Below are positions 1,773 to 15,447 of a DNA stretch of 15,658 nucleotides, piece after piece (position 1 is the first letter of the stretch; every line of letters begins with the position of its first letter). Location of the stretch: IMG/VR virus record IMGVR_UViG_2721755662_000003. One strand, given 5' to 3'. Under the pieces are notes generated by a model that ran no database searches, was not told where the DNA came from, and saw only the letters and a list, made by a program, of their open reading frames with translations. Source of the stretch: a virus (Duplodnaviria > Heunggongvirae > Uroviricota > Caudoviricetes). The translations under genes and the position numbers were made by a program.

Positions 1773-1922
1773 TCACGCTGGCGGCACGCAGCCGCCACAC
1801 ATCAATCATCTGAACACAGAGCTATAACCATGAAGATTGAATATACGCCAGAACGTGGGCGGGGATTCGTTCGCCCTGGTGAAACTGAAAAACAACAAAA
1901 TTGGGGTTTTTCAGGTATAAAA

Positions 1923-1950
1923 AAAGCGGCCCCGAAATGGAGCCGCCTTT
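1923..1950. terminator. GC hairpin (GCGGC-loop-GCCGC) with a 7-T run on the minus strand; probable terminator for the minus-strand small genes
   Basis: aaagcggc cccgaaatgga gccgccttt; A-run on + side gives T-run on minus strand. Confidence 0.4.
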
Positions 1951-2041
1951 CTGAACAGATAACCCGCTGCGCCGTTTGTGTGTGTGATCCCAAACATAAG
2001 CACGGGGATGATAGCCGTTATCAGGCTGGTGGGCAATGCAA

Positions 2042-2230
2042 TCAGTCTGGTTCAGTTCGTTGCCATACCTGCAATGAGCGCTTTTCCCTGTACTCTTTAA
2101 GGAATTGCTCAAGGGCAAAAGCACATGGCGCGAATCTTTCTGATTCATGCTCTATCTTTCTGCGCCGTCTTTTCCGTGCCGGTGATAATGTTTTGGTCAA
2201 TTCTTTATCGGTCATTGTGTTGTCCTGCAT
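2042..2230 (-). CDS. Hypothetical small basic protein (62 aa), in frame with and separated by a single TAA from the upstream RHH-like ORF
   Basis: ORF track; ARKRRRRK basic patch; no recognisable family. Confidence 0.35.
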   Translation of the reverse strand: MQDNTMTDKELTKTLSPARKRRRRKIEHESERFAPCAFALEQFLKEYREKRSLQVWQRTEPD

Positions 2231-2272
2231 AGCAATGCGCCGTAATACCTTACACCACGGCGCTGATGGTGA

Positions 2273-2452
2273 TTACTCTGGTTCTTTGGCCTTGCGCCGC
2301 TGGCGATATTCAACTTCTCGTTTTAATGCCGCAGTAACAAATTGCCCCGTACTTTCGCCAGGCATTTTTACCGCCTCAACATTGTTCATAACTTCATGCG
2401 GAACCCTTGCCGCAACGGTTTGTGATTTTGCGTTTACCGCTTTTGTCGCCAT
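2273..2452 (-). CDS. Small ribbon-helix-helix-like DNA-binding protein (59 aa), candidate island repressor; not in the ORF track because it is under 60 aa
   Basis: Hand translation of minus strand: MATKAVNAKSQTVAARVPHEVMNNVEAVKMPGESTGQFVTAALKREVEYRQRRKAKEPE; beta-strand then two helices pattern typical of RHH; SD GAGGGG 7 nt upstream of ATG; divergent from operator-bearing promoter. Confidence 0.5.
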   Translation of the reverse strand: MATKAVNAKSQTVAARVPHEVMNNVEAVKMPGESTGQFVTAALKREVEYRQRRKAKEPE

Positions 2453-2502
2453 GTGGTGTACCCCTCATAAAAAACAAATGCAGTATGCAGGAAAAAAAAT
2501 AA

Positions 2503-2555
2503 GTGTTCAACACTTGACGTGTTTAACACCTGGGTTTAAATTGGTGTTCAACACC
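2503..2555 (+). promoter_or_regulatory. Early promoter (TTGACG -35 at 2514-2519, 17-bp spacer, TAAATT -10 at 2537-2542) overlapped by three operator dyads GTGTTYAACAC
   Basis: Operators at 2503-2513, 2519-2529, 2544-2554, each GTGTT-N-AACAC; they cover the -35, spacer and start region. Confidence 0.55.
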
Positions 2556-2651
2556 TTGTTGGCGCAAGGTGCAGAAACGACGAAACCCGGCAGTGCGCTA
2601 ACACTAACCGGGCTTCTAACCACCAACGATAGCGAAAGTATCGAGGTAGCT

Positions 2652-2855
2652 ATGAGAAATCATACCACACACCCGCAAGGGCGGGACTCGCACAACCTGA
2701 ATAAATACATCTGGCGTTTTATCGCCCTGAGCACGGCACAACCGCGCGTGATTACCATTGAGGCCACCAGCGAACAGGAAGCACGCCAGCAATCTCCGGC
2801 TGGCTGCGTGATGGTATTCGCTGCCCGTATTCGCCAGGGGTCACATCATGCGTAA
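2652..2855 (+). CDS. Small protein (67 aa), possibly Icd-like/Ash-like family seen in P4-type elements; paralog of 3088-3309
   Basis: RBS gaggt 4 nt upstream of ATG 2652; C-terminal region KYIWRFIALS...IEATSEQEARQQ...VFAARIRQG mirrors second copy. Confidence 0.5.
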   Translation: MRNHTTHPQGRDSHNLNKYIWRFIALSTAQPRVITIEATSEQEARQQSPAGCVMVFAARIRQGSHHA

Positions 2856-2859
2856 AAAC

Positions 2860-3140
2860 CGCTTGCAAAAAATTATCACGGGGCTGTATGCTTCCCCCGT
2901 CGCCCACATGGCGACCGGGTTTGACAGCCTGAATACATCTGGCGGACAGCCGCCCACATCCGATAAGCGGTTTTTTTGTGTCCGTAAACCTACCCATACC
3001 CGCATTATGGCGGGGCGTAACGGGGGAGCCTTTGTGCTCGCTGGTTTCCAGATGACCAGTCTGTCAACCCTGTTACGTCTCGCCACCATGTTTGACAGCG
3101 TAGTAGCGAGACTCCTTAAAATTCATCTGGGAGCCTTTCA
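2860..3140 (+). promoter_or_regulatory. Structured leader between the two paralogous small genes: nested stem-loops, repeated GTTTGACAGC and GCCCACAT motifs, terminator-like GCGG+T7
   Basis: GGCTGT(2872)...CCCGTCGCC cacat GGCGACCGGG...ACAGCC(2930); GGCGG acag CCGCC (2932-2945); aagcgg ttttttt (2956-2967); CTGTCAA(3062)/TTGACAG(3092); GTCTCGC(3077)/GCGAGAC(3107). Confidence 0.35.
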
Positions 3141-3309
3141 CATGGCTGTATCCGCACGCCCTTATTTTGTCTGGCGCTTTATGCAGTGCCTGACAGACAG
3201 CATTGCAATATTCACCGTTACCGCTGCCACTGAGCGCGAAGCACGTGCACAGCTGCCGCACGCACATCTGATTTTTGTCGCCCGTATTCGTCAGGGGGTA
3301 GGCTTATGA
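3088..3309 (+). CDS. Small protein, paralog of 2652-2855 (start uncertain: ATG 3088 or ATG 3142)
   Basis: PYFVWRFMQCL...TVTAATEREARAQL...IFVARIRQG parallels first copy; the N-terminal half of the 153-aa track ORF is probably not coding. Confidence 0.5.
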   Translation: MFDSVVARLLKIHLGAFHMAVSARPYFVWRFMQCLTDSIAIFTVTAATEREARAQLPHAHLIFVARIRQGVGL

Positions 3310-3536
3310 GTCAGGAAATCACACTACAACAGGCAGCAGAACGCGCCCACCAAATCGAAGTTATTTGCGCACTGGCAGAGGATTACCCTGGCATGATGAC
3401 CGACAGCGAATCAGGGGCAATCATCGGCTTACTTAAACGCCTTAGCGGTGAGGTCTGCGTATTCCTGAGCGATGAACAGGAAAGAAGAACGCTTATTTCT
3501 AACGAAAAAAAATGCGGAGGGGTACATGTGCAATAA
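3306..3536 (+). CDS. Hypothetical protein (76 aa), early operon
   Basis: ORF track; start overlaps previous stop (ATGA coupling). Confidence 0.5.
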   Translation: MSQEITLQQAAERAHQIEVICALAEDYPGMMTDSESGAIIGLLKRLSGEVCVFLSDEQERRTLISNEKKCGGVHVQ

Positions 3537-3747
3537 AACCACACCGGACGCAGCCGCCGCCGCGCTCACTACGCTGATGCACGCGCTTATTGATATTTCT
3601 GTTATTGCTGACAGGGCGCATAAACACGCAGCCAGAGAATCAGAATGCATCTTCCATTTAGCATTTGTGCAGCTAAAAGCCGATCAGGCACTGGATAAGG
3701 CCGGAAAAATTATCATGGCTGATGTGCAGGAGGTGCACCATGCATAA
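3527..3747 (+). CDS. Hypothetical protein (about 73 aa from ATG 3527; track start 3472)
   Basis: SD ggagggg 7 nt upstream of ATG 3527; overlaps flanking genes by a few nt. Confidence 0.5.
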
Positions 3748-4105
3748 TCTGTCAATTTCTGACCTTAACAGCATTCAGTTTGATGAGAAATTTACCGGGC
3801 AGTTGCTGGTCAATGTGGAGAACGGGCGCATAGTGCGTAATTATCACCTGCCGGATGGTGCAATTGCCGGAAGCGTTGAAGCATTGCTGGAACTGGCGGA
3901 ACGTGCGCGACTGATTAAGCCGTCAACGAGCCATCACGATGATGATCTGCATTTTACCGGATGTATGGTGAGTCACTACGAAAACGGCGTCGAGGTATCC
4001 TGTGAACGGCTGCGTGATGATTGCTGTTTCGGCACACTGCCGGAATTTATCGAGTTGCTGACCAGTTGCGGTTATCAGGTCATTCAGGGGGGTAAACATG
4101 CGTGA
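3740..4105 (+). CDS. Hypothetical protein (about 121 aa from ATG 3740; track start 3722)
   Basis: SD aggagg 8 nt upstream of ATG 3740; stop overlaps next start. Confidence 0.55.
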   Translation: MHNLSISDLNSIQFDEKFTGQLLVNVENGRIVRNYHLPDGAIAGSVEALLELAERARLIKPSTSHHDDDLHFTGCMVSHYENGVEVSCERLRDDCCFGTLPEFIELLTSCGYQVIQGGKHA

Positions 4106-4331
4106 TGATCGTTTTAATTCCCTGAAACAGGAATTTTCCGGCGTTCCTGATGATGCGGCTGATGCGCTTTCGTCAATGCCAGAACTTATTAGAGCGGCTT
4201 TTTTCTTACTTTCCACGAGAGAATATAAATCAACGGGGCTTGATGTACTGAATATCGCCGCCGATTATGCGGAATATGTGGCAGAGGCGCGTTATAGAAG
4301 AAAATTTCCTGAGGATGTAAGCCATGCGTGA
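4098..4331 (+). CDS. Hypothetical protein (77 aa)
   Basis: ORF track; translational coupling to neighbours. Confidence 0.5.
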   Translation: MRDDRFNSLKQEFSGVPDDAADALSSMPELIRAAFFLLSTREYKSTGLDVLNIAADYAEYVAEARYRRKFPEDVSHA

Positions 4332-4557
4332 TATTTACCACGAAACAATAGACCGCGCATTTCTTGCACTTTCTCACAGTGAAAACATGCTGGAAATATT
4401 GCGCATATGGCTTGAAACACTTGGCGACAATGAACGCGACAAACAAAAATCAAGAATTGCCACGGCATCAATAACGCTTCTTGAGCCTGTAATAATGGAA
4501 CTGCAAGAAATAGATCTATTGCACGACAGATATAAAGAACAGCACACCGGAGAATAA
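4324..4557 (+). CDS. Hypothetical protein (77 aa)
   Basis: ORF track; translational coupling to neighbours. Confidence 0.5.
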   Translation: MRDIYHETIDRAFLALSHSENMLEILRIWLETLGDNERDKQKSRIATASITLLEPVIMELQEIDLLHDRYKEQHTGE

Positions 4558-4562
4558 AAATA

Positions 4563-4862
4563 ATGAAACTTAAATATTCTGGCTTAACTGCCAGTGGCAA
4601 CACTCACCCTAAATTTACGCGCGGCGATATTTACCGCGACCAGTACGGCGGCACGGTAATGATTAAGGGCGTGGAAGAACGGCGCGTAACCTACCGCCGT
4701 GAAGGTTACGAATATGATTGCGTGATGCCTGTTTATCAGTTCCGGCGTGATTTTTCTCTGGTACAGACCGCGCCGCATAACGTGTCCACCAGCAACGCCA
4801 GGGCACGGGCAAACATCCAGAAGCTGAAAACCATGATTAACGGATTCAGGGGTAAAAAATGA
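4563..4862 (+). CDS. Hypothetical protein (99 aa) immediately upstream of and overlapping primase start
   Basis: ORF track; stop overlaps primase ATG (ATGA). Confidence 0.5.
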   Translation: MKLKYSGLTASGNTHPKFTRGDIYRDQYGGTVMIKGVEERRVTYRREGYEYDCVMPVYQFRRDFSLVQTAPHNVSTSNARARANIQKLKTMINGFRGKK

Positions 4863-6613
4863 AACTGGCACCGAACGTAAAACAGCAGTCACGCGGCATA
4901 AAACACAAAGAAACAGAAGTCATTATTTTTGCGGGTAGTGATGCCTGGTCACACGCAAAACAATGGCAGGAACATGACGCGCGTATGGCCGGAGATAATG
5001 AGCCTCCTGTGTGGCTTGGGGAGCAGCAGTTATCCGAACTGGATAAGCTGCAAATTGTGCCGGAAGGCAGAAAATCCGTGCGCATATTCAGGGCCGGATA
5101 TCTTGCGCCAGTAATGATAAAGGCGATTGGTCAGAAGCTGGCGGCGGCAGGCGTACAGGATGCAAATTTTTACCCTGATGGTATGCACGGTCAGAAGGTG
5201 GAGAACTGGCGCGAATATCTGGCCCGTGAGCGCCAGAATCTTTCTGATGGTCTGGTCATTGAGCTTCCGGTAAAGCAAAAGGCGCAACTTTCGCAGATGG
5301 CGGACAGTGAGCGCGCGCAGCTGCTTGCCGATCGCTTTGATGGCGTTTGCGTACATCCTGAAAGTGAAATCGTTCACGTATGGCGCGGCGGGGTATGGTG
5401 TCCGGTCAGCACAATGGAACTTAGCCGCGAAATGGTGGCGATCTATTCAGAGCACAGGGCCACTTTCAGCAAGCGCGTAATCAATAACGCCGTGGAAGCG
5501 TTAAAAGTTATTGCCGAACCAATGGGCGAGCCGTCCGGCGATTTGTTGCCGTTCGCCAATGGTGCGCTTGACCTGAAAACGGGGGAATTTTCCCCGCACA
5601 CGCCGGAGAACTGGATCACCACGCACAACGGCATTGAGTACACGCCACCAGCACCAGGGGAGAACATCCGCGATAACGCGCCAAACTTTCATAAATGGCT
5701 TGAGCACGCAGCCGGAAAAGACCCGCGCAAGATGATGCGTATATGTGCCGCGCTGTACATGATTATGGCGAACCGGTACGACTGGCAGATGTTTATTGAG
5801 GCCACCGGAGACGGCGGGAGCGGTAAAAGTACATTCACACACATAGCCAGCCTTCTGGCAGGGAAACAGAACACGGTAAGCGCTGAAATGACATCGCTTG
5901 ATGATGCTGGTGGACGTGCGCAGGTTGTCGGGAGTCGTCTTATCGTCCTGGCTGACCAGCCGAAATATACAGGCGAAGGAACGGGCATCAAGAAAATCAC
6001 GGGCGGTGACCCCGTGGAAATTAACCCGAAATACGAAAAGCGTTTCACGGCGGTAATCAGGGCGGTGGTGCTGGCGACCAACAATAACCCGATGATATTC
6101 ACCGAACGGGCCGGAGGTGTGGCACGTCGTCGCGTGATTTTCCGTTTCGACAATATCGTCAGTGAGGCCGAAAAAGACAGGGAGCTACCGGAAAAGATCG
6201 CGGCTGAAATCCCTGTCATTATCCGCCGATTGCTGGCGAACTTTACCGACCCTGAGAAGGCACGGGCTTTACTACTGGAACAGCGTGACGGTGATGAAGC
6301 TCTGGCAATAAAGCAACAGACGGATCCGGTTATTGAGTTTTGCCAGTTCCTGAATTTTCTGGAGGAAGCACGCGGCCTGATGATGGGCGGCGGTGGCGAT
6401 TCAGTGAAGTACACGACCAGAAACAGCCTTTACCGCGTCTATCTGGCGTTTATGGCGTACGCAGGCAGGAGCAAACCGCTAAACGTAAATGACTTTGGCA
6501 AGGCTATGAAGCCAGCCGCGAAAGTTTACGGACATGAATATATTACGCGGAAAGTTAAGGGAGTAACGCAGACTAACGCAATAACAACAGACGAGTGCGA
6601 CGCGTTTTTATAA
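4859..6613 (+). CDS. Replication protein: P4-family primase C-terminal type (D5_N-like region plus SF3 helicase NTPase), 584 aa
   Basis: Walker A GDGGSGKST, Walker-B-like LIVLADQP, D5_N-like region LPFANGALDLKTGEFSPHTPENWITTHNGIEY; followed directly by iteron ori. Confidence 0.85.
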   Translation: MKLAPNVKQQSRGIKHKETEVIIFAGSDAWSHAKQWQEHDARMAGDNEPPVWLGEQQLSELDKLQIVPEGRKSVRIFRAGYLAPVMIKAIGQKLAAAGVQDANFYPDGMHGQKVENWREYLARERQNLSDGLVIELPVKQKAQLSQMADSERAQLLADRFDGVCVHPESEIVHVWRGGVWCPVSTMELSREMVAIYSEHRATFSKRVINNAVEALKVIAEPMGEPSGDLLPFANGALDLKTGEFSPHTPENWITTHNGIEYTPPAPGENIRDNAPNFHKWLEHAAGKDPRKMMRICAALYMIMANRYDWQMFIEATGDGGSGKSTFTHIASLLAGKQNTVSAEMTSLDDAGGRAQVVGSRLIVLADQPKYTGEGTGIKKITGGDPVEINPKYEKRFTAVIRAVVLATNNNPMIFTERAGGVARRRVIFRFDNIVSEAEKDRELPEKIAAEIPVIIRRLLANFTDPEKARALLLEQRDGDEALAIKQQTDPVIEFCQFLNFLEEARGLMMGGGGDSVKYTTRNSLYRVYLAFMAYAGRSKPLNVNDFGKAMKPAAKVYGHEYITRKVKGVTQTNAITTDECDAFL

Positions 6614-6619
6614 TTTTTT

Positions 6620-6860
6620 GTAATTGCTGTCTACCCTGTCTACCTGAGTAAAGAAAAATACATTTAATTCAGTGCATTAAGTTAGGTAGATAACCTTTTT
6701 TTACTGTCTACCCACTATCTACCCTCTCTACCTGATTTTACCTGAATCAGACAGGGAGGTAGACACGGGGTAGATAGTGGATAAAAGCACTCTACCCCGC
6801 TGAAAGCCGCGCCATTACTGGTATGAGGGCCACTAAGGTAGATAAGGTAGACAAGGGGAG
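6620..6860. repeat. Iteron-type replication origin: at least 11 copies of the core TCTACC/GGTAGA (octamer YRTCTACC) in both orientations with AT-rich spacers
   Basis: tgtctacc at 6628, 6637, 6706; tatctacc 6717; tctctacc 6726; ctctaccc 6791; inverted copies ggtaga at 6685, 6758, 6771, 6838, 6847; AT-rich tracts 6611-6620, 6650-6680, 6692-6702. Confidence 0.7.
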
Positions 6861-6901
6861 GCACAACTCAAAACTTTTTAAACGAGGGGGTAAAAATAAA
6901 T

Positions 6902-7180
6902 ATGCACACTTCAGGGAAATTTAATAAATCACTCAAAAAACGCAGAGACAGAACAGAACCGAAATATCGCGCGTTAGACATGACAGAGCACGCTTTAAAG
7001 GTGGCAATCAGAACGATAGACCGCCACGCGGGGGAAGGATACGCGAAAGCACATCCCGAACTGATAAGCGCATTCATGACCACGACGGCGGCAAATTTTG
7101 CCACGCTGACAGAGCGGGAGATTGCCGAAGCGGAACAGGTAACAACCATCAACGTTAAAACCGGAGAGGTGGAATCATGA
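6902..7180 (+). CDS. Hypothetical protein (92 aa), first gene of SSB operon
   Basis: SD gaggggg upstream of ATG 6902; stop overlaps ssb start. Confidence 0.5.
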   Translation: MHTSGKFNKSLKKRRDRTEPKYRALDMTEHALKVAIRTIDRHAGEGYAKAHPELISAFMTTTAANFATLTEREIAEAEQVTTINVKTGEVES

Positions 7181-7587
7181 CAGCACAGATAGCAGCTTAC
7201 GGGCGGCTGGTGGACGACCCGCAGGTAAAACAGACCAGCAAGGGTACACCGATGACGCTGGCGCGTATGGCGGTATCGCTGCCATGCAGCCAGGCACAGG
7301 ATGGACAGGCGACGTTATGGCTATCGGTCATCGCATTTGGTAAGCAGGCCGACTTCCTGGCTAAACATCAAAAAGGCGACGTTGCCAGCGTATCCGGCAC
7401 GATGCAGGTCAGCCAGTGGACCGGACAGAACGGGGAAACGCGGCAGGGTTATCAGGTTATTGCAGACAGCGTAATCAGTGCCCGTGCGGCACGTCCTGGT
7501 GGGAGCCGACGCAAGACCACAGGCACACAGGGTAATCAGCCACCAGCGGGAGGCGATGACCCTTACGGTGATGATATTCCGTTCTGA
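7177..7587 (+). CDS. ssb: Single-stranded DNA-binding protein (136 aa)
   Basis: OB-fold region similar to E. coli SSB (WLSVIAFGKQAD vs WHRVVLFGKLAE), Gly/Pro-rich linker, acidic C-terminal tip ending DDIPF. Confidence 0.85.
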   Translation: MTAQIAAYGRLVDDPQVKQTSKGTPMTLARMAVSLPCSQAQDGQATLWLSVIAFGKQADFLAKHQKGDVASVSGTMQVSQWTGQNGETRQGYQVIADSVISARAARPGGSRRKTTGTQGNQPPAGGDDPYGDDIPF

Positions 7588-7599
7588 GGGGTGGGGACG

Positions 7600-7872
7600 A
7601 TGGTACATGACCGCATAGCGGAAGAACTGGAGGCGAAAGGCTTTTACCGGAGAGCGTCGGCGCGATGGGGTGAAGTCATGCAACTGGTGGAGACAGACAA
7701 GGAACGGCATCACATCACGATGCGACGGCTGGAATGTTCCAGGAAGGCACAGAGGCCACCGGAGCCGCCGGATAACTACGGAGACCTGAAAAAGGCGGTC
7801 GATCGCACTTATGCCGAAATGGGTATGGATGGTGCTGGTAATGAAATATGGCGAAATTACCAGGACAGATAA
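7600..7872 (+). CDS. Probable PerC-family transcriptional activator (about 90 aa from ATG 7600)
   Basis: N-terminal MVHDRIAEELEAKGFYRRASARWGEVM matches my recollection of the PerC/Pch motif; SD gaggggtgggga upstream. Confidence 0.5.
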   Translation: MVHDRIAEELEAKGFYRRASARWGEVMQLVETDKERHHITMRRLECSRKAQRPPEPPDNYGDLKKAVDRTYAEMGMDGAGNEIWRNYQDR

Positions 7873-7878
7873 TCACAC

Positions 7879-7902
7879 AGCCGGAGCAATCCGGCTTTTT
7901 GT
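7879..7902 (+). terminator. Rho-independent terminator: AGCCGGA-GCAA-TCCGGCT then TTTTTGT
   Basis: 7-bp GC-rich stem, GNRA-type tetraloop, T-run immediately 3'. Confidence 0.75.
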
Positions 7903-7949
7903 CATGTTTTGTAAATTATTTGTTCGTGGTTGTTCCACGTTGTTCACTG
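7899..7949 (+). repeat. Five 10/11-bp-phased TTGT repeats (ttgtca, ttgtaa, ttgttc, ttgttc, ttgttc) upstream of the capsid operon
   Basis: TTGT at 7899, 7909, 7920, 7930, 7940; same motif as 1267-1310 (opposite strand) and 15383-15408. Confidence 0.65.
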
Positions 7950-8000
7950 AGCGGATCGGCATATTTTACCCGAACTGAATCATGATTATTCTCGCCCGTG

Positions 8001-8158
8001 GTGCCAGGACGCTGGGGCCACTTTTCCGCCTGTTAATGTTCTCGCCAATATTCATTACCAGGCGGGAAAACGATCGGTGCGATTGCTGATTTCCTTATGA
8101 AAAACGGTTGAGTTTTTGCCGCGTCCTGGAGTTCCTTACTTAACCCCAGGACTTTTTT
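8001..8158 (+). promoter_or_regulatory. Structured untranslated leader of the capsid operon: nested inverted repeats and a hairpin plus T7 run ending 2 nt before the capsid ATG; no SD
   Basis: TTTTCCGCCTG(8022-8032)/CAGGCGGGAAAA(8059-8070); CCAGGACGC(8004-8012)/GCGTCCTGG(8121-8129); TCCTGG(8124-8129)/CCAGGA(8146-8151) followed by CTTTTTTTA. Confidence 0.4.
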
Positions 8159-8159
8159 T

Positions 8160-9317
8160 ATGCCGAGAATAATCGAATTACGCCAGCAGAAAACCGCCAT
8201 TAAAAATCAGATGCGCGACATGCTGGAGAACGCGGAAAAAGAAAACCGCAGTCTTAACGATGCTGAGGGCGCAAAATTTGACGAATTACGCGCTAAAGCT
8301 GAATCCCTCGATAAAGACATTTCCCGCCTTGAAGCCATTGCAGACGAAGAGCGCAGCAAGCCAGGTAAAAGCAGTCAGACCACTGACCCAGCCGAACTAC
8401 GTCACTACATTCTGACAGGTGAAACCCGCGCATTAAGTACAGGCGTTCCCGCTGATGGTGGTTATACCGTTATCCCCGAACTGAACACCGAAATCATGCG
8501 AATGCTGACGGATGAATCCACCATGCGCCGCATCTGTACCGTGAAGAAAATCAGCAGCAACGAGTTTAAGCAGCTTGTTTCCGCTGGCGGTGCGACCGTT
8601 AACCACGGTGAAGAGGGTAAGGCACGCGAACAGACCAGCACCCCGCAGATTAACGAGGTGAGCATTAAGCTGTATCCGGTCTATGCGTACCCGCGCACCA
8701 CGCAGGAAATCGTGGATTTTTCCGATGTGGACATCCTTTCATGGCTGACGGGCGAGATTGGCGACAACTTCACGGAAACCGAAGAAAGCGATCTGGTTGT
8801 GGGCGACGGTGACAAAAAAGCAAAAGGCTTTTTATCCGTACCCCGTGCAGAGAAGAACGACAAAGAGCGTGATTTTGGTACGTTGCAGGTAATTAAACCT
8901 TCCGAATCTCTGGCGTGGACATCTGCGGACCCGCTGATCGACCTGAAATTTGCATTACGTAAAAAATACCGCAAAAACGCGGTCTGGGTGGTTAACTCCA
9001 CGACGGCGGCAAAACTTCAGAAGGTGAAGAACGCGAACGGTGATTACATCTGGCGCGACCGTTTACAGGCGGGTGATCCTGATACGTTACTGGGCCTTCC
9101 GGTCGAATATCTGGAGTTTATGCCGGATAACGTTATTGCCCTGGGTGACTTCAAACGCGGTTACTACATTGTTGATCACGAAACAGGTGTTCGCACCAGA
9201 CCGGACAACCTCACAGAGCCGGGCTTCATCAAAATTTTCACGCAGAAATATTTAGGCGGTGGCGTGGTGGATTCGAACGCGATCAAGATTCTGGAACTGC
9301 CACAGGACGACGATTAA
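8160..9317 (+). CDS. Major capsid protein, HK97 fold, with N-terminal coiled-coil delta (scaffold) domain; 385 aa
   Basis: N-terminal 100 aa charged/helical (delta-domain-like), remainder typical HK97-family MCP; same length as HK97 gp5; prohead protease gene follows. Confidence 0.9.
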   Translation: MPRIIELRQQKTAIKNQMRDMLENAEKENRSLNDAEGAKFDELRAKAESLDKDISRLEAIADEERSKPGKSSQTTDPAELRHYILTGETRALSTGVPADGGYTVIPELNTEIMRMLTDESTMRRICTVKKISSNEFKQLVSAGGATVNHGEEGKAREQTSTPQINEVSIKLYPVYAYPRTTQEIVDFSDVDILSWLTGEIGDNFTETEESDLVVGDGDKKAKGFLSVPRAEKNDKERDFGTLQVIKPSESLAWTSADPLIDLKFALRKKYRKNAVWVVNSTTAAKLQKVKNANGDYIWRDRLQAGDPDTLLGLPVEYLEFMPDNVIALGDFKRGYYIVDHETGVRTRPDNLTEPGFIKIFTQKYLGGGVVDSNAIKILELPQDDD

Positions 9318-9327
9318 CAGCATACAG

Positions 9328-9356
9328 AAGGGGCTTAAAAGCCCCTTTAGTGTTTT
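9328..9356 (+). terminator. Hairpin AAGGGGC-ttaaaa-GCCCCTT followed by T-rich tract after capsid gene (probably a partial terminator)
   Basis: 7-bp stem read directly; U-tract interrupted (TTTAGTGTTTTAT). Confidence 0.5.
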
Positions 9357-9929
9357 ATGGGTGAAAAAATTATGAAGAGTATGGAAATCCGGTCATCGGA
9401 AATCACTACCAGCGGAGCCGGTACGCTGACGGGCTACGTTGTTCGCTGGGATAAGCTTTCAGAACTGCTATGGGGGGAGTTTTACGAAAAATTCCAGCGG
9501 GGGGCGTTTACTGAGTGGCTTGCGGCGGGTAATGACGTTCGCGGCCTGTATGAGCATGACCACAGCATGTTACTGGGGCGCACCCGTTCCGGCACGCTGA
9601 AACTGGAAGAGGACGAAACAGGGTTACGCTTTGAACTGACCCCACCGGATACCAGTACAGGGCGCGACGTTATCGAACTGGTTAAGCGTGGGGACATCTC
9701 GGGGATGAGCTTTGGCTTTCGCTCCCGTAAGGATGTATGGGATACCACAACAGATCCATGCGTGCGCACCGTGCTGGTGGCGGAACTGTACGAAATTACC
9801 GTTACATCGGTACCGGCTTACCCCGATTCCGGCGTGGAGCTGGCCCGCCGTTCCCTGTATGAGCAGCACCCCGAAAAAATGCCGCGTGCGGATAATCGCC
9901 GCTGGTGGGTGGATTTAGCGGGGGTGTGA
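9357..9929 (+). CDS. Prohead maturation protease, HK97 family (start may be ATG 9372)
   Basis: Motifs YVVRWDK, GLYEHDH, GLRFEL, DISGMSFGF typical of HK97-type prohead proteases; positioned between capsid and portal. Confidence 0.85.
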   Translation: MGEKIMKSMEIRSSEITTSGAGTLTGYVVRWDKLSELLWGEFYEKFQRGAFTEWLAAGNDVRGLYEHDHSMLLGRTRSGTLKLEEDETGLRFELTPPDTSTGRDVIELVKRGDISGMSFGFRSRKDVWDTTTDPCVRTVLVAELYEITVTSVPAYPDSGVELARRSLYEQHPEKMPRADNRRWWVDLAGV

Positions 9930-9930
9930 T

Positions 9931-11142
9931 ATGTGGCCTTTCAGAAGAAAAAAAGAGCAGCGCAGCATGACGCTGGATGAATTTATGGCGCTGGCTGGCA
10001 CATCGAACACGGGGGCGGGTGAGTACGTATCATCGGGGACAGCGGAATCACTGCCCGCCGTCATGAACGCCGTGACGGTCATCTCTGAGGCGGTGGCTAC
10101 CATGCCGTGTTACCTGTACCTGGTACGCAATGAGAAGGGGAAGGAGGCCCGCGAGTGGCTTGATTCTCATCCGGTCGATCACATCCTCAACGAGCGCCCG
10201 AACGCATGGCAAACCCCCTACCAGTTTAAGCGAATGATGATCCGCCACTGCCTGTTAAACGGTAATGCTTATGCGGTGATTCAGTGGGGGCGTGATGGTT
10301 TTCCGGCGGCTTTACATCCTTACCCGCCGCAGTCGGTGAACGTGGAGCAGACAGGCGAACACAACTGGCGCTACTGCATCACTGACGCCTACACCGGAAA
10401 CACCCGCAACTATTTACCGTGGGAAGTACTTCACCTTCGTTACTCCACGGATGACGGCTTTATGGGGCGCTCACCTGTAACCATCTGCCGCGAATCGCTG
10501 GGGCTTGGGCTGGCCCAACAACGCCACGGCGCGAGCGTGATGCGTGATGGCATGATGGCGGCAGGGGTTATCACGTCAGGCGAATGGCTGGACGGCGTGA
10601 AGGGCAAACAGGCATTAGCCGCACTGGAACGCTACAAAGGGGCCAGAAACGCCGGAAAAACGCCCATCCTTGAAGGGGGTATGAGCTATCAGCAGCTGGG
10701 CATGAGTAATCAGGATGCTGAATGGCTGGCCTCCCGTCGCTTCACCATTGAAGACATCGCCCGAATGTTCAACGTCTCGCCGATTTTTTTGCAGGAATAC
10801 AGCAACAGCACCTACAGCAATTTCAGCGAGGCAAGCCGCGCATTTCTCACCATGACGATGCGCCCGTGGCTGGCGAACTTTGAGCAGCAGATAAAAAACG
10901 CCCTGCTGGTGGCCTCGCCTGTACCTGGTATCCGGTATCAGGTGGAGTTTGACAGCGCGGACCTGTTACGGGCCACACCTGGCGAACGCTTTGCCACCTA
11001 TGAGCGCGGCATCAAATCCGGCGTTATGTGTCCGAACGAAGCCCGCGAACGTGAAGGTCTGTCACCGCGTGATGGTGGTGATGAGTTCAGCCAGGCATGG
11101 AAACAGGAAGTAAAAATCAGCGAGGGAGAAAAACCGGAATGA
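9931..11142 (+). CDS. Portal protein, HK97 family (403 aa)
   Basis: Conserved portal segments NGNAYAVIQW, RRFTIEDIARMFNVSPIFL, MRPWLANFEQQI. Confidence 0.9.
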   Translation: MWPFRRKKEQRSMTLDEFMALAGTSNTGAGEYVSSGTAESLPAVMNAVTVISEAVATMPCYLYLVRNEKGKEAREWLDSHPVDHILNERPNAWQTPYQFKRMMIRHCLLNGNAYAVIQWGRDGFPAALHPYPPQSVNVEQTGEHNWRYCITDAYTGNTRNYLPWEVLHLRYSTDDGFMGRSPVTICRESLGLGLAQQRHGASVMRDGMMAAGVITSGEWLDGVKGKQALAALERYKGARNAGKTPILEGGMSYQQLGMSNQDAEWLASRRFTIEDIARMFNVSPIFLQEYSNSTYSNFSEASRAFLTMTMRPWLANFEQQIKNALLVASPVPGIRYQVEFDSADLLRATPGERFATYERGIKSGVMCPNEAREREGLSPRDGGDEFSQAWKQEVKISEGEKPE

Positions 11143-11477
11143 ACATAGGGCGACTGCGTGACAGGATAACGATTCAGACCCTGAAACAGACCAGGGATAT
11201 AACCGGCGAAATACTCGAAACGTGGGAGGACGGTCACACACTCTGGGCAAGCGTGAACATGGTCAGCAGCAAGGAGGCCATTTCATCGGGCGCAGAGCTG
11301 GCGATTGGTACCGTAAGGATCTGGATACGGTACCGGAAGGACATCAACGCCACCAGCCGGATAAAGGTCAGTACGGGGCCGCTGGCGGGGCGTGTACTGA
11401 ATATCATCGGGCAGCCGCTGCCGGATGCCGCCAGGACACGCCTTGAAATTCTTTGTCGTGAGGGCGCGGAAAAATGA
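11139..11477 (+). CDS. Head-tail adaptor / head closure protein (about 112 aa from ATG 11139 overlapping portal stop)
   Basis: MNIGRLRDRITIQ...WASV...IRYRKDI pattern of phage head-tail joining proteins; ATGA overlap with portal stop. Confidence 0.7.
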   Translation: MNIGRLRDRITIQTLKQTRDITGEILETWEDGHTLWASVNMVSSKEAISSGAELAIGTVRIWIRYRKDINATSRIKVSTGPLAGRVLNIIGQPLPDAARTRLEILCREGAEK

Positions 11478-11770
11478 CAGAAGAACTTATCACCCTGGAA
11501 GAAGTGAAACTCCATTGCCGCATCGATGGCGACGATGAAGACCAGTTAATCAGCGGATACATTGCCGCATCGCTTGAGGCGTGCCAGATACACATAGGCA
11601 GGCGCTTTGATGACGGGCTGGAGTTCACGCCAGCCATAAAGATTGGCTGCATGATGTTTATCGCTCACCTGTATGAAAATCGCCAGATTGTCGCGGATAA
11701 CGCAAAAACACGCGTACCCATGACGATAGGCGCACTCTGGACGGCTTACCGTGATGTGGGGGTGTACTGA
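11474..11770 (+). CDS. Head-tail connector protein, gp6-like (98 aa)
   Basis: LITLEEVKLHCRIDGDDEDQLISGYIAAS...YENRQ matches gp6-like connector N-terminal pattern. Confidence 0.7.
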   Translation: MTEELITLEEVKLHCRIDGDDEDQLISGYIAASLEACQIHIGRRFDDGLEFTPAIKIGCMMFIAHLYENRQIVADNAKTRVPMTIGALWTAYRDVGVY

Positions 11771-12210
11771 TGCCGTGGCAACCATTAAGACGATGCACAG
11801 AACCAGGCTGTAACAGGCGCGTTAAATCCGGCAAGTGTGAGGAGCACAGGCGGGCGGCATGGCGTGCAGAGGATGCCAGACGAGGACACCGCCGCGCGCG
11901 TGGATATTCCAGACAGTGGGACAAATACCGCGCCATGTATCTGAGTAAAAACCCGTTATGCGTGCGATGCCTTGAGAAGGGGATATATACGCCCGCCGTG
12001 GTGGTGGATCACATTATCCCGATTAATGGCGGTGATGATGTTCTCTTCTGGCCCGAATGGAACCATCAACCATTGTGCCAGGCGTGTCATAACCAGAAAA
12101 CGAAATGGCTTGATCCGGCAACAAAAAGCAAGCGTGCCGCAGGTGGATTTCGTGAAGAGGAAGAACGGGCCGCTAACCGCAATAACTGGATGTATGACGC
12201 TGATGAATGA
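11770..12210 (+). CDS. HNH endonuclease associated with terminase (146 aa)
   Basis: Cys pairs CxxC...C...C with VDHIIPI and NHQPLCQACHNQKT (HNH motif); sits immediately upstream of TerS as in cos-type HK97-like packaging modules. Confidence 0.85.
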   Translation: MPWQPLRRCTEPGCNRRVKSGKCEEHRRAAWRAEDARRGHRRARGYSRQWDKYRAMYLSKNPLCVRCLEKGIYTPAVVVDHIIPINGGDDVLFWPEWNHQPLCQACHNQKTKWLDPATKSKRAAGGFREEEERAANRNNWMYDADE

Positions 12211-12376
12211 GCGGGAACAAAACCGCCTTATCCGTGGACTTATAAGGCAGCGTGACGCATGGAAGACACAGGAAACAGGGCATAAAGATAAAGCGTCAGG
12301 ACGCGCAGAACGCATCACAGCGAAGCGATTAACCGACCGTGACCGCGAGGTTATGGAATGTTTCCGCAATCGCTGA
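12203..12376 (+). CDS. Possible small highly charged protein (57 aa) between HNH and TerS; low confidence
   Basis: 3' part of track ORF 11972-12376 lying outside HNH; MNEREQNRLIRGLIRQRDAWK...; no clear SD. Confidence 0.25.
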   Translation: MNEREQNRLIRGLIRQRDAWKTQETGHKDKASGRAERITAKRLTDRDREVMECFRNR

Positions 12377-12379
12377 TGA

Positions 12380-12440
12380 GGCTGTATGACGGGGTGGGGG
12401 GCGTTTTCAGGACAAACCCGACCCCGCCGGGCACCGAACG
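12380..12440. other. Candidate cos/packaging site: G-run and C-run rich segment between HNH and terS
   Basis: acggggtggggggcg ... cccgaccccgccgggc; position matches where cos lies in HK97-type phages that use HNH+TerS+TerL. Confidence 0.3.
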
Positions 12441-12498
12441 CCTCCTCAAATTTTTATGCACGGGAATTTTTTGAAAAATAATCTGACGAAAAATAAGC

Positions 12499-12855
12499 AT
12501 GGCAAGACCACCGAAAGCCCCCGCCTACCTGGATGACATCGCCGTGAAGCAGTGGCGGGAAAAATCGCGGCAGCTTGCGGAACGGGGAGACCTGACCCCC
12601 GCCGACTGGAGCAATCTGGAACTGTATTGTGTCAACTACTCCATTTACCGGAAAGCCGTCGCAGACCTTGCGGCGCGCGGGTTCAGCATTGTTAACAGTC
12701 AGGGCGGCGAGAGCAGAAACCCCGCATTAAGCGCGAAATCAGACGCTGAAAGGGTGATGATAAAAATGGCCTCCTTGCTCGGTTTTGACCCGATAAGCCG
12801 CCGTAAAAACCCACCGGAAACAGAAGAAGAGGACGAGCTTGACCGCCTGGAATAA
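12499..12855 (+). CDS. terS: Terminase small subunit, P27-like family (118 aa)
   Basis: WSNLELYCVNYSIYRKA...NPALS...GFDPISR pattern of P27-family TerS; overlaps terL start. Confidence 0.8.
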   Translation: MARPPKAPAYLDDIAVKQWREKSRQLAERGDLTPADWSNLELYCVNYSIYRKAVADLAARGFSIVNSQGGESRNPALSAKSDAERVMIKMASLLGFDPISRRKNPPETEEEDELDRLE

Positions 12856-15382: not shown

Positions 15383-15447
15383 TTGTGTCTATTTGTTCCA
15401 CGTTGTTTCATACAGTGCACCGAACGGTGTAGTCACTGGTGTAGTCA
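15383..15447 (+). repeat. att-proximal direct repeats: TTGTGT/TTGTTC/TTGTTT (15383, 15394, 15403) and GGTGTAGTCA x2 (15426-15435, 15438-15447)
   Basis: Read directly; lies roughly 70-140 bp inside the inferred right junction, where arm-type and Xis-type sites usually sit. Confidence 0.45.

What the first reader, a model, noticed from the sequence alone, without database searches (positions are those of the whole stretch)
6902..7587. Island-encoded SSB with canonical DDIPF tail co-transcribed with an unknown 92-aa protein
The SSB is short (136 aa) but keeps the acidic C-terminal tip that recruits host replication/repair proteins. An element-borne SSB could support island replication, protect packaged ssDNA intermediates or compete with host SSB interactions. 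The preceding 92-aa ORF is unknown and coupled to ssb (ATGA overlap).
Basis: partly seen in the sequence, partly recalled or inferred. Interest (0 to 1): 0.45.

Follow-up and report, generated by a model that had tools for sequence, protein, structure and literature searches.

The report
Satellite-island SSB gene with small partner
The region holds a real single-stranded-DNA-binding protein gene and a small helical partner gene, which sit just after the replication origin of a known E. coli phage satellite (a capsid-forming PICI); the SSB is already annotated and ordinary, and the partner belongs to a widespread uncharacterised family that sits next to replication genes.

Summary
ORFs 6902-7180 (92 aa) and 7177-7587 (136 aa, ending DDIPF) exist and overlap by ATGA. 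The 136-aa protein is a genuine OB-fold SSB: Pfam PF00436 E=4e-17, TIGR00621 above cutoff, and the EcSSB W54/F60/W88 equivalents are invariant.

The window is 100% identical to a ~15.5-kb capsid-forming PICI inserted in tqsA of E. coli FORC_069. The same gene trio is present in the prototype cf-PICI EcCIEDL933.

The two genes open a compact module: iteron origin (6621-6858), orf92, ssb, perC, then a conserved hairpin terminator (7879-7896). The pair matches in 1412 of 5426 complete E. coli genomes. It has no close homologue in deposited phage genomes. It recombines freely with two replicase types and with capsid and non-capsid islands.

RefSeq already annotates the SSB, and one paper files PICI SSBs under "Replication". 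Published pri-ori constructs replicate alone, so the SSB is accessory.

The 92-aa protein is phrog_1231, a helical hairpin with no Pfam or PDB relative. It has 601 distant relatives, usually next to primases, helicases or polymerases but without an SSB.

Best reading: an accessory replication module. Novelty is low for the SSB and modest for the partner family.

The parts
6621..6858 (.). Putative island replication origin (context, upstream of the finding). It is an array of TCTACC/GGTAGA iterons in both orientations, with an AT-rich stretch at about 6650-6705, between the primase stop (6613) and the orf92 start (6902).
   Evidence: 11 of the 12 TCTACC copies in the 15.7-kb window fall in 6630-6851; 3.7 are expected for the whole window and 0 of 200 shuffles reach 12. 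Repeat families are and the sequence. [quoted passage not shown] Function is inferred, not tested.
6902..7180 (+). orf92: a 92-aa protein of family phrog_1231. It has a basic disordered N-terminal tail (residues 1-19) and an alpha-helical hairpin (helices about 20-43 and 52-90). The family motif ID..(F)G.GYAK.HPELI.AFM.TAA lies at the hairpin turn.
   Evidence: phrog_1231 E=2.9e-51. No Pfam, NCBIfam, PADLOC or PDB sequence match. A profile search finds 601 relatives at E<=1e-3. AlphaFold2 with a 90-sequence alignment gives mean pLDDT 81, with block means of 91-98 over residues 21-70. dN/dS is 0.095. RefSeq CDS WP_000557476.1.
7177..7587 (+). ssb: a 136-aa single-stranded DNA-binding protein. 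OB domain about residues 1-103, short basic linker about 104-126, acidic tip DDPYGDDIPF at 127-136.
   Evidence: PF00436 E=4.2e-17; TIGR00621 above its cutoff. PDB SSBs hit down to E=4e-12, with the tail aligned to the Thermus SSB tail. It is 26% identical to E. coli SSB. W48, F54 and W81 (= EcSSB W54, F60, W88) are invariant. dN/dS is 0.048. RefSeq CDS WP_000126693.1.
7177..7180 (+). ATGA overlap of the orf92 stop codon and the ssb start codon (translational coupling). A GGAGAGGTGG Shine-Dalgarno-like run lies inside the end of orf92.
   Evidence: Sequence. The overlap is conserved in 69 of 82 related loci.
7555..7584 (+). Codons for the SSB C-terminal tip DDPYGDDIPF.
   Evidence: In the 14 PICI SSBs of the alignment the terminal P-F is invariant while the linker before it varies by insertions and deletions. 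Across these and the variants listed the tips read DDIPF, DNIPF, DGIPF or DDVPF.
7600..7872 (+). perC-family gene, third gene of the cluster (context). The ATG at 7600 is the RefSeq start; an upstream in-frame GTG lies at 7591.
   Evidence: PF06069 PerC E=4.6e-43. RefSeq CDS WP_000233313.1. It starts 12 nt after the ssb stop.
7879..7901 (+). Intrinsic-terminator-like hairpin AGCCGGA-GCAA-TCCGGCT followed by TTTTT; it marks the 3' end of the orf92-ssb-perC cluster.
   Evidence: Terminator scan. RNA fold -14.4 kcal/mol, z=-3.85. The exact 22-nt sequence is present in 49 related loci and follows whichever gene is last in the cluster: perC, ssb or orf92.

Best explanation
The segment is the start of a small accessory replication module of a capsid-forming phage-inducible chromosomal island (cf-PICI) inserted in E. 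coli tqsA.

Shown here:
- The 136-aa protein is a bona fide OB-fold SSB of a lineage carried by enterobacterial PICIs. It keeps the ssDNA-stacking aromatic residues and the host-type acidic ...D(D/N/G)(I/V)PF tip.
- It lies 4 nt-overlapped behind a 92-aa helical-hairpin protein (phrog_1231).
- Both lie directly downstream of the island's primase-helicase gene and iteron origin. With perC they are closed off by a conserved hairpin terminator.

Inferred:
- After a helper phage switches on the island's rightward transcription through AlpA, orf92 and ssb are made together with the replicase.
- The SSB coats the single strands opened at the island origin and at its forks. Through its tip it engages the host partners that normally dock on host SSB (for example Pol III chi, PriA, DnaG).
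- This tops up SSB capacity at a time when helper phage and island replicate together.
- The role is helpful rather than essential, because a related PICI pri-ori segment replicates on its own.
- The 92-aa protein is most likely a replication-module accessory factor, such as a partner of the replicase, the origin or the SSB. Distant relatives sit next to primases, helicases or DNA polymerases of many unrelated families in satellites and phages.
For: Identity of the SSB.

Identity of the island:
- The window is 100% identical to FORC_069, split tqsA, 23-bp att repeats.
- Gene set int-alpA-primase...capsid-protease-portal-connectors-HNH-TerS-TerL.
- Same trio and same order in EcCIEDL933, the published cf-PICI prototype (papers).

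Position next to the origin: iterons, matching the published PICI origin layout (PMC6092414).

Module boundaries:
- No sigma-70-like + strand promoter in 6500-8300, and a terminator at 7879.
- The terminator is conserved in 49 loci after whichever gene is last and folds stably.

Coupling:
- Of the 80 IMG/VR loci, 77 have a recognisable ssb after orf92 (three of them truncated or cut by the contig end), one has only a short ssb remnant (L036), and two have none (L026, L058).
- ATGA overlap in 69 of 82 loci.
- 63 further loci with an SSB, nearly all in the same 4-nt overlap and a few behind the ~310-bp insert.

Selection and prevalence: strong purifying selection on both genes; present in 1412 of 5426 complete E. 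coli genomes.

Literature: SSB, Primase and DUF5906 genes of Gram-negative PICIs colocalise with mapped origins and are classed as Replication (PMC10111431).

The orf92 family beside replication genes in distant taxa:
- DUF927/Toprim/Zn-ribbon primase-helicases
- CHC2 primase
- VapE
- AAA_25
- D5_N/DUF5906
- Prim-Pol
- family-A DNA polymerases
- an SNF2-type helicase
Against: - No experiment or expression data were available. ssDNA binding, oligomeric state, timing of expression and any effect on island copy number are all inferred.
- pri-ori of EcCICFT073 alone supports replication in DH5alpha (PMC6092414), so the SSB is dispensable for initiation.
- SSB variants do not co-vary with replicase type. 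All combinations of D5-type or DUF927-type replicase with either SSB variant occur. This argues against a specific SSB-replicase partnership.
- orf92 variants and SSB variants also recombine: L002 has 100% orf92 with 72% SSB.
- Distant phrog_1231 members have no SSB within 5 kb in about 38 loci. A Xenorhabdus cf-PICI-like element has the orf92 homologue but no SSB.
- The orf92-SSB link is therefore clade-specific, and orf92 does not need an SSB.
- EcSSB W40 and the tetramer-interface H55 are replaced by Cys37 and Leu49.
Confidence: 0.55

Rival explanations
1. The SSB acts mainly as a decoy or competitor rather than a replication helper. Its host-type tip sequesters or redirects host SSB partners (ExoI/SbcB, RecJ, RecQ, PriA, Ung). 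This could protect replicating or cos-cut island DNA, bias resources against the helper phage, or modulate defence systems that sense SSB-like proteins.
For: - The tip is the most conserved part of the tail while the linker is free to vary.
- The lineage is distinct from host SSB (26% identity) and from SSBs of deposited phages (at most 35% identity), so it is not a simple dosage copy.
- A genome can carry up to 6 matching places.
- Precedent: a phage SSB-like protein with an FDDDIPF tip is required to trigger the DRT10 defence system, which host ExoI modulates (bioRxiv 10.64898/2026.04.29.721553).
Against: - The OB-fold DNA-binding residues are under strong purifying selection (dN/dS 0.048), which a pure tip decoy would not need.
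- EcCIEDL933, which carries the same genes, does not reduce helper phage reproduction (bioRxiv 10.1101/2022.09.08.507074).
- No PADLOC defence-system model matches any of the three genes.
Confidence: 0.2
2. orf92 and the SSB form an obligate two-protein unit. Examples would be an SSB loader or adaptor that bridges the island helicase-primase and the SSB, or a priming complex analogous to the small-protein plus SSB pairs of SCC elements.
For: - The 4-nt overlap is conserved in 69 of 82 loci.
- The pair is kept together across two replicase types and across capsid and non-capsid islands.
- orf92 has a basic N-terminal tail that could contact DNA or the acidic SSB tip (sequence; disordered in the model).
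- Precedent of Pol-like small protein plus SSB pairs next to a helicase in mobile elements (bioRxiv 10.1101/2022.12.02.518924).
Against: - The family exists widely without any SSB.
- orf92 and SSB variants are shuffled relative to each other.
- 9 loci tolerate another gene inserted between them.
- L026 and L058 keep orf92 without ssb.
- orf92 is a helical hairpin, not a polymerase-like fold.
Confidence: 0.15
3. The cluster is regulatory cargo rather than replication machinery. In this reading orf92 (with PerC) controls the switch to the downstream packaging operon or host genes, and the SSB is incidental.
For: - The cluster lies between the replication and packaging modules and ends in a terminator.
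- No sigma-70-like promoter is seen before the capsid gene, so some activator or antiterminator is needed.
- PerC is a transcription-factor family.
- A PICI PerC homologue represses LEE (PMC11773190).
Against: - orf92 has no recognisable DNA-binding fold or family.
- Its relatives sit next to replication genes, not at late-operon boundaries, in most distant loci.
- Many islands have orf92-ssb and the terminator without perC.
Confidence: 0.08

Closest known systems
The orf-ssb-perC trio of EcCIEDL933, the prototype capsid-forming PICI of E. coli O157:H7 EDL933
   Same: Same three genes in the same order, between the replicase/origin and the capsid operon. The region is 94% identical in DNA. The terminal hairpin is the same, and some packaging proteins are identical (for example TerS WP_000113645.1).
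   Different: EcCIEDL933 sits between roxA and phoQ, not in tqsA. It has a DUF927 replicase of 710 aa instead of the 584-aa D5_N/DUF5906 replicase here. Its orf92 homologue is annotated 83 aa long. It has extra small ORFs after perC. The papers on it that I could read do not mention the SSB.
E. coli chromosomal SSB (PDB 1EYG/1EQQ)
   Same: OB fold; W54, F60 and W88 equivalents; disordered linker; acidic tip ending in IPF.
   Different: Only 26% identical. It is 136 aa rather than 178 aa because the linker is about 24 residues and basic rather than long and Gly/Gln/Pro-rich. W40 is replaced by Cys and H55 by Leu. Oligomeric state is unknown.
SSBs of conjugative plasmids and of phages (F-plasmid Ssf type, NCBIfam PRK13732; staphylococcal phage SSBs)
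   Same: Mobile-element copies of SSB with a host-like tip, thought to supplement host SSB (own knowledge for the plasmid proteins).
   Different: Not the same lineage. PRK13732 scores 25 bits against a cutoff of 265. The best matches in deposited phage genomes are 29-35% identical and come mostly from Firmicutes phages. Plasmid SSBs serve DNA that enters as a single strand, whereas this island is packaged by a terminase as double-stranded DNA.
Pol-like small protein plus SSB pairs (CcPol-MP) next to a helicase in SCCmec-type elements (bioRxiv 10.1101/2022.12.02.518924)
   Same: A small protein gene and an SSB-fold gene are paired beside the replicative helicase of an integrative element.
   Different: There the partner is a truncated family-A polymerase fold and the SSB uses lineage-specific tails. 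Here the partner is a helical hairpin and the SSB keeps the canonical host tip.
Phage SSB-like protein Bas52_0087 with an FDDDIPF tip (DRT10 trigger; bioRxiv 10.64898/2026.04.29.721553)
   Same: A mobile-element SSB-fold protein carrying the host SSB tip motif.
   Different: It has two OB folds, comes from a virulent phage, and is known as a defence trigger. No such role was tested or indicated here.
Satellite phage P4 Cnr (ORF106, DUF5375), the small replication regulator encoded just upstream of the alpha primase
   Same: A small protein encoded next to the primase-helicase of an E. coli satellite.
   Different: No detectable relationship to orf92 (hhalign probability 0.3%).

Membership tests
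Bacterial/phage SSB family (Pfam PF00436, TIGR00621) | OB-fold domain matching the family profile above the curated threshold | tested here: met
   PF00436 62.5 bits (cutoff 26), residues 5-99. TIGR00621 57.7 bits (cutoff 53.95). 25 PDB SSB sequences at E<=1e-3.
Bacterial/phage SSB family (Pfam PF00436, TIGR00621) | Aromatic residues that stack on ssDNA (EcSSB W40, W54, F60, W88) | tested here: met
   W48, F54 and W81 align with W54, F60 and W88 and are invariant in 14 PICI SSBs. W40 is replaced by a nearly invariant Cys37. Three of four are kept.
Bacterial/phage SSB family (Pfam PF00436, TIGR00621) | Disordered linker followed by an acidic C-terminal tip ending in Pro-Phe | tested here: met
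   The protein ends ...GGDDPYGDDIPF. The terminal P-F is invariant in the alignment. Tips DDIPF, DNIPF, DGIPF and DDVPF occur in the family while the linker varies by indels.
Bacterial/phage SSB family (Pfam PF00436, TIGR00621) | Homotetramer (or equivalent four-OB assembly) | tested here: inconclusive
   The tetramer-interface His55 of EcSSB is Leu49 here. No multimer prediction or experiment was possible.
Bacterial/phage SSB family (Pfam PF00436, TIGR00621) | Binds single-stranded DNA; complements an ssb mutant | not testable with these tools
   Needs EMSA or fluorescence titration and ssb-1(ts) or plasmid-shuffle complementation.
Capsid-forming PICI (cf-PICI) | Integrase, AlpA, a primase-helicase replicase and an iteron origin 3' of it, all transcribed rightward | tested here: met
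   int 1-1218, AlpA PF05930, D5_N/DUF5906/Pox_D5 primase 4859-6613. Iterons at 6621-6858.
Capsid-forming PICI (cf-PICI) | Own HK97 capsid, protease, portal, head-closure and connector proteins, HNH, TerS and TerL, but no tail or lysis genes; about 15 kb between att repeats | tested here: met
   RefSeq products for the identical segment. ORFs 8160-14500. 23-bp direct repeats about 15.5 kb apart. Gene order and several proteins are identical to EcCIEDL933. Absence of tail and lysis genes is judged from the annotation only.
Capsid-forming PICI (cf-PICI) | Induction by a helper phage through AlpA, and transfer in own capsids joined to helper tails | not testable with these tools
   Shown experimentally for EcCIEDL933 (bioRxiv 10.1101/2022.09.08.507074), not for this island.
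phrog_1231 (the 92-aa protein) | Match to the family profile over its full length | tested here: met
   E=2.9e-51, residues 12-92 on profile positions 3-83 of 83. All 90 aligned near and distant relatives hit the same PHROG. The family has no assigned function.
P4 Cnr / DUF5375 | Sequence or profile similarity to P4 ORF106 | tested here: not met
   hhalign probability 0.3%, E=0.24. No Pfam hit for orf92.
Plasmid leading-region SSB (NCBIfam PRK13732) | Score above the subfamily cutoff | tested here: not met
   25 bits against a cutoff of 265.
Known anti-phage defence systems (PADLOC-DB) | Any of orf92, SSB or PerC matching a defence-system protein model | tested here: not met
   No family at E<=0.01 for any of the three.

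The most novel reading that the evidence does not exclude
The 92-aa protein represents an unrecognised, phylum-spanning family (phrog_1231, helical hairpin with a conserved GxGYAxxHPEL turn) of accessory replication factors of phage satellites and phages. In the enterobacterial PICI clade it has become functionally wedded to a satellite-specific SSB. The two would act as a unit, for instance an adaptor linking the island helicase-primase or origin to the SSB, or a modulator of what the SSB tip recruits.
Probability: 0.3. Interest if true: 0.55.

Novelty: already known. Interest (0 to 1): 0.3.

Why it matters
About a quarter of complete E. coli genomes (1412 of 5426) carry one or more copies of this pair. 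Many cells therefore hold extra SSB genes with an intact host-type interaction tip, presumably silent until a helper phage induces the island. If the SSB boosts satellite replication or diverts host SSB partners, it would be a lever in the three-way contest between host, helper phage and satellite, and it could be a trigger for SSB-sensing defences. The more useful lead is the partner. A short, strongly conserved helical protein found beside primases, helicases and polymerases in very different bacteria has no assigned function. The E. coli cf-PICI system (EcCIEDL933 with helper HK106) is an established genetic system in which to test it.

Tried and rejected
- Function for orf92 by sequence: no Pfam, NCBIfam, PADLOC or PDB sequence hit, either as a single sequence or as a 90-sequence profile.
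- P4 Cnr as a homologue of orf92: rejected.
- Phage origin of the pair: tblastn of orf92 against 50,697 phage records gave no match. The SSB gave only matches of 35% identity or less.
- A general orf92-SSB linkage: rejected. None of about 38 distant loci has an SSB within 5 kb.
- SSB-replicase or SSB-orf92 co-variation: not seen; all combinations occur.
- A promoter between the origin and orf92: none found on the + strand with the simple sigma-70 scan.
- Searches that failed or were uninformative: P0121+ ids from the first protein search were not retrievable; alignment A4 was too diverse for locus finding; P0250 gave no viral loci.
- 'Protection of packaged ssDNA': rejected because the island has a terminase/portal/HK97 head set, and such heads package double-stranded DNA (established knowledge).
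Full report
OBSERVATION. The ORF table and the sequence show an ATG-initiated ORF at 6902-7180 (92 aa) and another at 7177-7587 (136 aa). The second ends ...GGDDPYGDDIPF. The stop of the first and the start of the second share ATGA at 7177-7180. A GGAGAGGTGG run lies just upstream of the second start. RefSeq annotates these same two CDSs in the identical chromosome segment.

THE SSB.
- The 136-aa protein matches Pfam SSB (PF00436) at E=4.2e-17 over residues 5-99. It passes the curated TIGR00621 cutoff (57.7 against 53.95 bits).
- It hits 25 solved SSBs. The best are the Thermus and Thermotoga proteins (E=4e-12 and 4e-11), and its tail aligns with the Thermus tail.
- It is only 26% identical to E. 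coli SSB.
- In an alignment of 14 PICI SSBs with E. coli SSB, the equivalents of W54, F60 and W88 (W48, F54, W81) are invariant. W40 is replaced by a nearly invariant Cys37, and the tetramer-interface His55 by Leu49.
- The OB domain ends near residue 103. It is followed by a short, basic linker of about 24 residues and then the acidic tip.
- In the alignment the linker changes by insertions and deletions while the terminal Pro-Phe is invariant. Across the family the tips read DDIPF, DNIPF, DGIPF or DDVPF.
- Median dN/dS of the OB domain is 0.048.
ssDNA binding and oligomeric state remain untested.

THE ELEMENT.
- The 1.2-kb region around the finding is 100% identical to many E. coli chromosomes, and the whole window is identical to FORC_069.
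- In FORC_069 the window lies between a 23-bp direct repeat (CGGTGTAGTCACTGGTGTAGTCA; the right copy is at window 15425-15447). It splits tqsA.
- The gene set is integrase, AlpA, Icd-like ORFs, DUF4222, a 584-aa D5_N/DUF5906/Pox_D5 primase-helicase, the cluster under study, then HK97 capsid, prohead protease, portal, head closure, connector, HNH, TerS and TerL. No tail or lysis genes are annotated.
- This is the architecture of the capsid-forming PICIs described for EcCIEDL933 (bioRxiv 10.1101/2022.09.08.507074).
- EcCIEDL933 itself carries the same hypothetical-SSB-PerC trio at 94% DNA identity, between its replicase and capsid operon.

THE MODULE.
- Upstream boundary. Between the primase stop (6613) and orf92 (6902), 11 of the 12 TCTACC hexamers of the whole window occur in both orientations, around an AT-rich stretch. 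Only 3.7 are expected for the whole window, and no shuffle reached 12. This is the layout reported for Gram-negative PICI origins, immediately 3' of rep (PMC6092414).
- Promoters. No sigma-70-like + strand promoter is found from 6500 to 8300.
- Downstream boundary. perC (7600-7872, PF06069 E=4.6e-43) starts 12 nt after ssb. Seven bases after perC comes a hairpin, AGCCGGA-GCAA-TCCGGCT, followed by a T-run (-14.4 kcal/mol, z=-3.85).
- Conservation of the hairpin. The exact 22-nt hairpin is present in 49 related loci. It follows whichever gene is last in the cluster: perC in islands like this one, ssb in islands without perC, and orf92 in L026, which has no ssb.
- The unit is therefore: origin, orf92, ssb, optional perC, terminator.

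DISTRIBUTION AND MOSAICISM.
- The 686-bp pair matches in 1412 of 5426 complete E. coli genomes. 870 of them have at least 80% coverage, and one genome has up to six places.
- Among 80 IMG/VR loci found with orf92, 77 have a recognisable SSB gene after it (three of them truncated or cut off by the contig end). L036 keeps only a short ssb remnant, and L026 and L058 have none.
- The ATGA overlap is kept in 69 of 82 loci. Nine have one extra 101-aa ORF inserted between the two genes; it overlaps the orf92 stop by ATGA and ends 9 nt before the ssb start.
- The pair occurs with the D5-type replicase and with a second type that shares only the N-terminal ~120 residues (DUF927 in EcCIEDL933). It occurs in islands with and without capsid genes, and all combinations of orf92 variant and SSB variant are seen.
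- The SSB linker type co-varies with the presence of perC downstream, not with the replicase.
- Neither protein has a close homologue in 50,697 deposited phage genomes. orf92 gave no tblastn hit, and the SSB gave at most 35% identity, mostly to Firmicutes phages. This is a satellite lineage, not a recent capture from the host or from a helper phage.

THE 92-AA PROTEIN.
- It matches phrog_1231 (unknown function) at E=2.9e-51 and nothing in Pfam, NCBIfam, PADLOC or PDB.
- Close relatives (69-100% identity) are confined to Escherichia, Shigella and Citrobacter. They differ mainly in a basic N-terminal tail.
- A profile search of 1.84 billion representatives finds 601 relatives at E<=1e-3. They share ID..FG.GYAK.HPELIAAFM.TAA.DF, and all 90 that I aligned hit phrog_1231.
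- With that alignment AlphaFold2 gives a confident helical hairpin (mean pLDDT 81, block means of 91-98 over residues 21-70; helices 20-43 and 52-90), with the conserved motif at the turn.
- Structure searches return only generic hairpins or uncharacterised phage proteins.
- P4 Cnr, the small replication regulator next to the P4 primase, is unrelated.
- Core dN/dS is 0.095.

CONTEXT OF DISTANT RELATIVES.
- I examined 21 genome loci (Nitrosomonas, Verrucomicrobia, Desulfobulbaceae, Xenorhabdus, Achromobacter, Bacteroides, Raoultella and others) and about 17 distant viral contigs. None has an SSB within 5 kb.
- Of 20 neighbouring ORFs that I scanned with Pfam (mostly the large ones), 13 (in 12 of the loci) are replication proteins of unrelated families: DUF927/Toprim/Zn-ribbon, a CHC2 DnaG-like primase, VapE, AAA_25, D5_N/DUF5906, Prim-Pol/DUF5906, two family-A DNA polymerases and an SNF2-type helicase. 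Of the remaining seven, one is AlpA, one a C-5 DNA methylase, one a portal-type protein, and four had no Pfam match.
- A Xenorhabdus element has primase, the orf92 homologue and then an HK97 capsid operon, with no SSB or PerC.
- The family thus tracks replication modules of satellites and phages in general. The coupling to an SSB is a derived feature of the enterobacterial PICI clade. This sample is small and hand-picked by ORF size, so the association is indicative, not quantified.

WHAT IS ALREADY KNOWN.
- RefSeq names the protein a single-stranded DNA-binding protein in thousands of genomes.
- A survey of Gram-negative PICIs states that Primase, SSB and DUF5906 genes colocalise with mapped origins, and places them in a Replication category (PMC10111431).
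- The cf-PICI papers I could read do not mention the SSB or its partner.
- The pri-ori segment of EcCICFT073 alone supports replication in DH5alpha (PMC6092414), so an island SSB is not required for initiation.
- I found no experimental work on the PICI SSB.

INTERPRETATION.
- Best supported: the pair belongs to an accessory replication module that is expressed with the replicase after AlpA-dependent induction. The SSB supplements host SSB on island DNA and uses its tip to engage host replisome partners. orf92 is a replication-associated accessory factor of unknown activity.
- Shown: identity, position, coupling, conservation and distribution.
- Inferred: timing, ssDNA binding, partner recruitment and any benefit.
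- Rival: tip-mediated decoy of host SSB partners or interplay with defence systems. A precedent exists. Against it stand the conserved DNA-binding residues, the lack of helper interference by EcCIEDL933 and the absence of PADLOC hits.
- Rival: an obligate orf92-SSB complex. A Pol-SSB pair precedent exists. Against it stand SSB-less relatives and shuffled variants.
- Rival: a regulatory role for the cluster.

VERDICT. The finding is real and correctly described, but the SSB is an already annotated and already catalogued component of a known satellite family, so interest is low. The modest new point is that its 92-aa partner belongs to a broad, uncharacterised helical-hairpin family that sits beside replication genes across phyla. 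It is tightly and specifically coupled to a satellite-type SSB in enterobacterial PICIs.

Noticed in passing
window 6621-6858: Dense array of TCTACC/GGTAGA iterons in both orientations, with an AT-rich stretch at about 6650-6705, immediately after the primase gene. This is probably the island replication origin. 11 of the window's 12 copies lie here.
   Followed up: partly
window 7879-7901; also 49 related loci: An exactly conserved 22-nt hairpin plus T-run ends the cluster whatever the last gene is (perC, ssb or orf92), even where the genes themselves have diverged to 70-90% identity. It looks like an intrinsic terminator. Exact conservation suggests it may also be a module-exchange boundary or a regulated (antiterminated) site.
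   Followed up: partly
window 7600-8160: The PerC-family gene sits directly before the capsid operon. The 260-bp gap between the terminator and the capsid gene has no sigma-70-like promoter in the simple scan. The packaging operon may need an activator or read-through, and PerC is a candidate. Many islands lack perC, however.
   Followed up: no
window 2886-2935 and 3003-3090: Rfam finds a C4 antisense RNA (72.6 bits) and its a1/b1 target sites (46.8 bits), next to ORFs annotated as Icd-like cell-division inhibitors. This is a P1/P4-type RNA immunity module in the island's early region.
   Followed up: no
L038 6243-6548 (also L036, L037, L039, L040, L049-L051, L066): In nine related islands an extra 101-aa ORF (MSEPKFGEKFYKHNGRITILQ...) is inserted between the orf92 homologue and ssb. 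It overlaps the orf92 stop by ATGA and ends 9 nt before the ssb start. Its function is unknown.
   Followed up: no
window 4859-6613 versus L104 6500-8632: Two different replicases serve the same downstream module: a 584-aa D5_N/DUF5906/Pox_D5 protein here and a 710-aa DUF927 protein in EcCIEDL933. They share only the N-terminal ~120 residues (45-64% identity), and both follow a DUF4222 gene. This suggests a common N-terminal docking domain on exchangeable helicase bodies.
   Followed up: partly
window 15425-15447 and 59 bp upstream of the window start (L001 3242 and 18726): A 23-bp direct repeat CGGTGTAGTCACTGGTGTAGTCA flanks the island, which interrupts the AI-2 transporter gene tqsA. These are the probable attL and attR.
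   Followed up: yes
L105 1545-1790 and 5001-5255: One viral contig carries two phrog_1231 genes. One is followed by ssb as usual. The second, diverged copy (about 55% identity) is in a different context with no ssb after it.
   Followed up: no
proteins P0319, P0298, P0291: Some distant phrog_1231 relatives are fused to other domains. P0319 has an N-terminal segment that by eye resembles a T5orf172/GIY-YIG-like domain, and a similar protein is encoded next to the family member in L098. This was not tested with any profile.
   Followed up: no
L091 (Xenorhabdus sp. TCT-1) 1820-8730: A cf-PICI-like element in Xenorhabdus has a DUF927 primase, then the phrog_1231 gene, then an 84-aa ORF and an HK97 capsid-protease-portal operon, with no SSB or PerC. 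The SSB is therefore not a universal part of capsid-forming satellites.
   Followed up: partly
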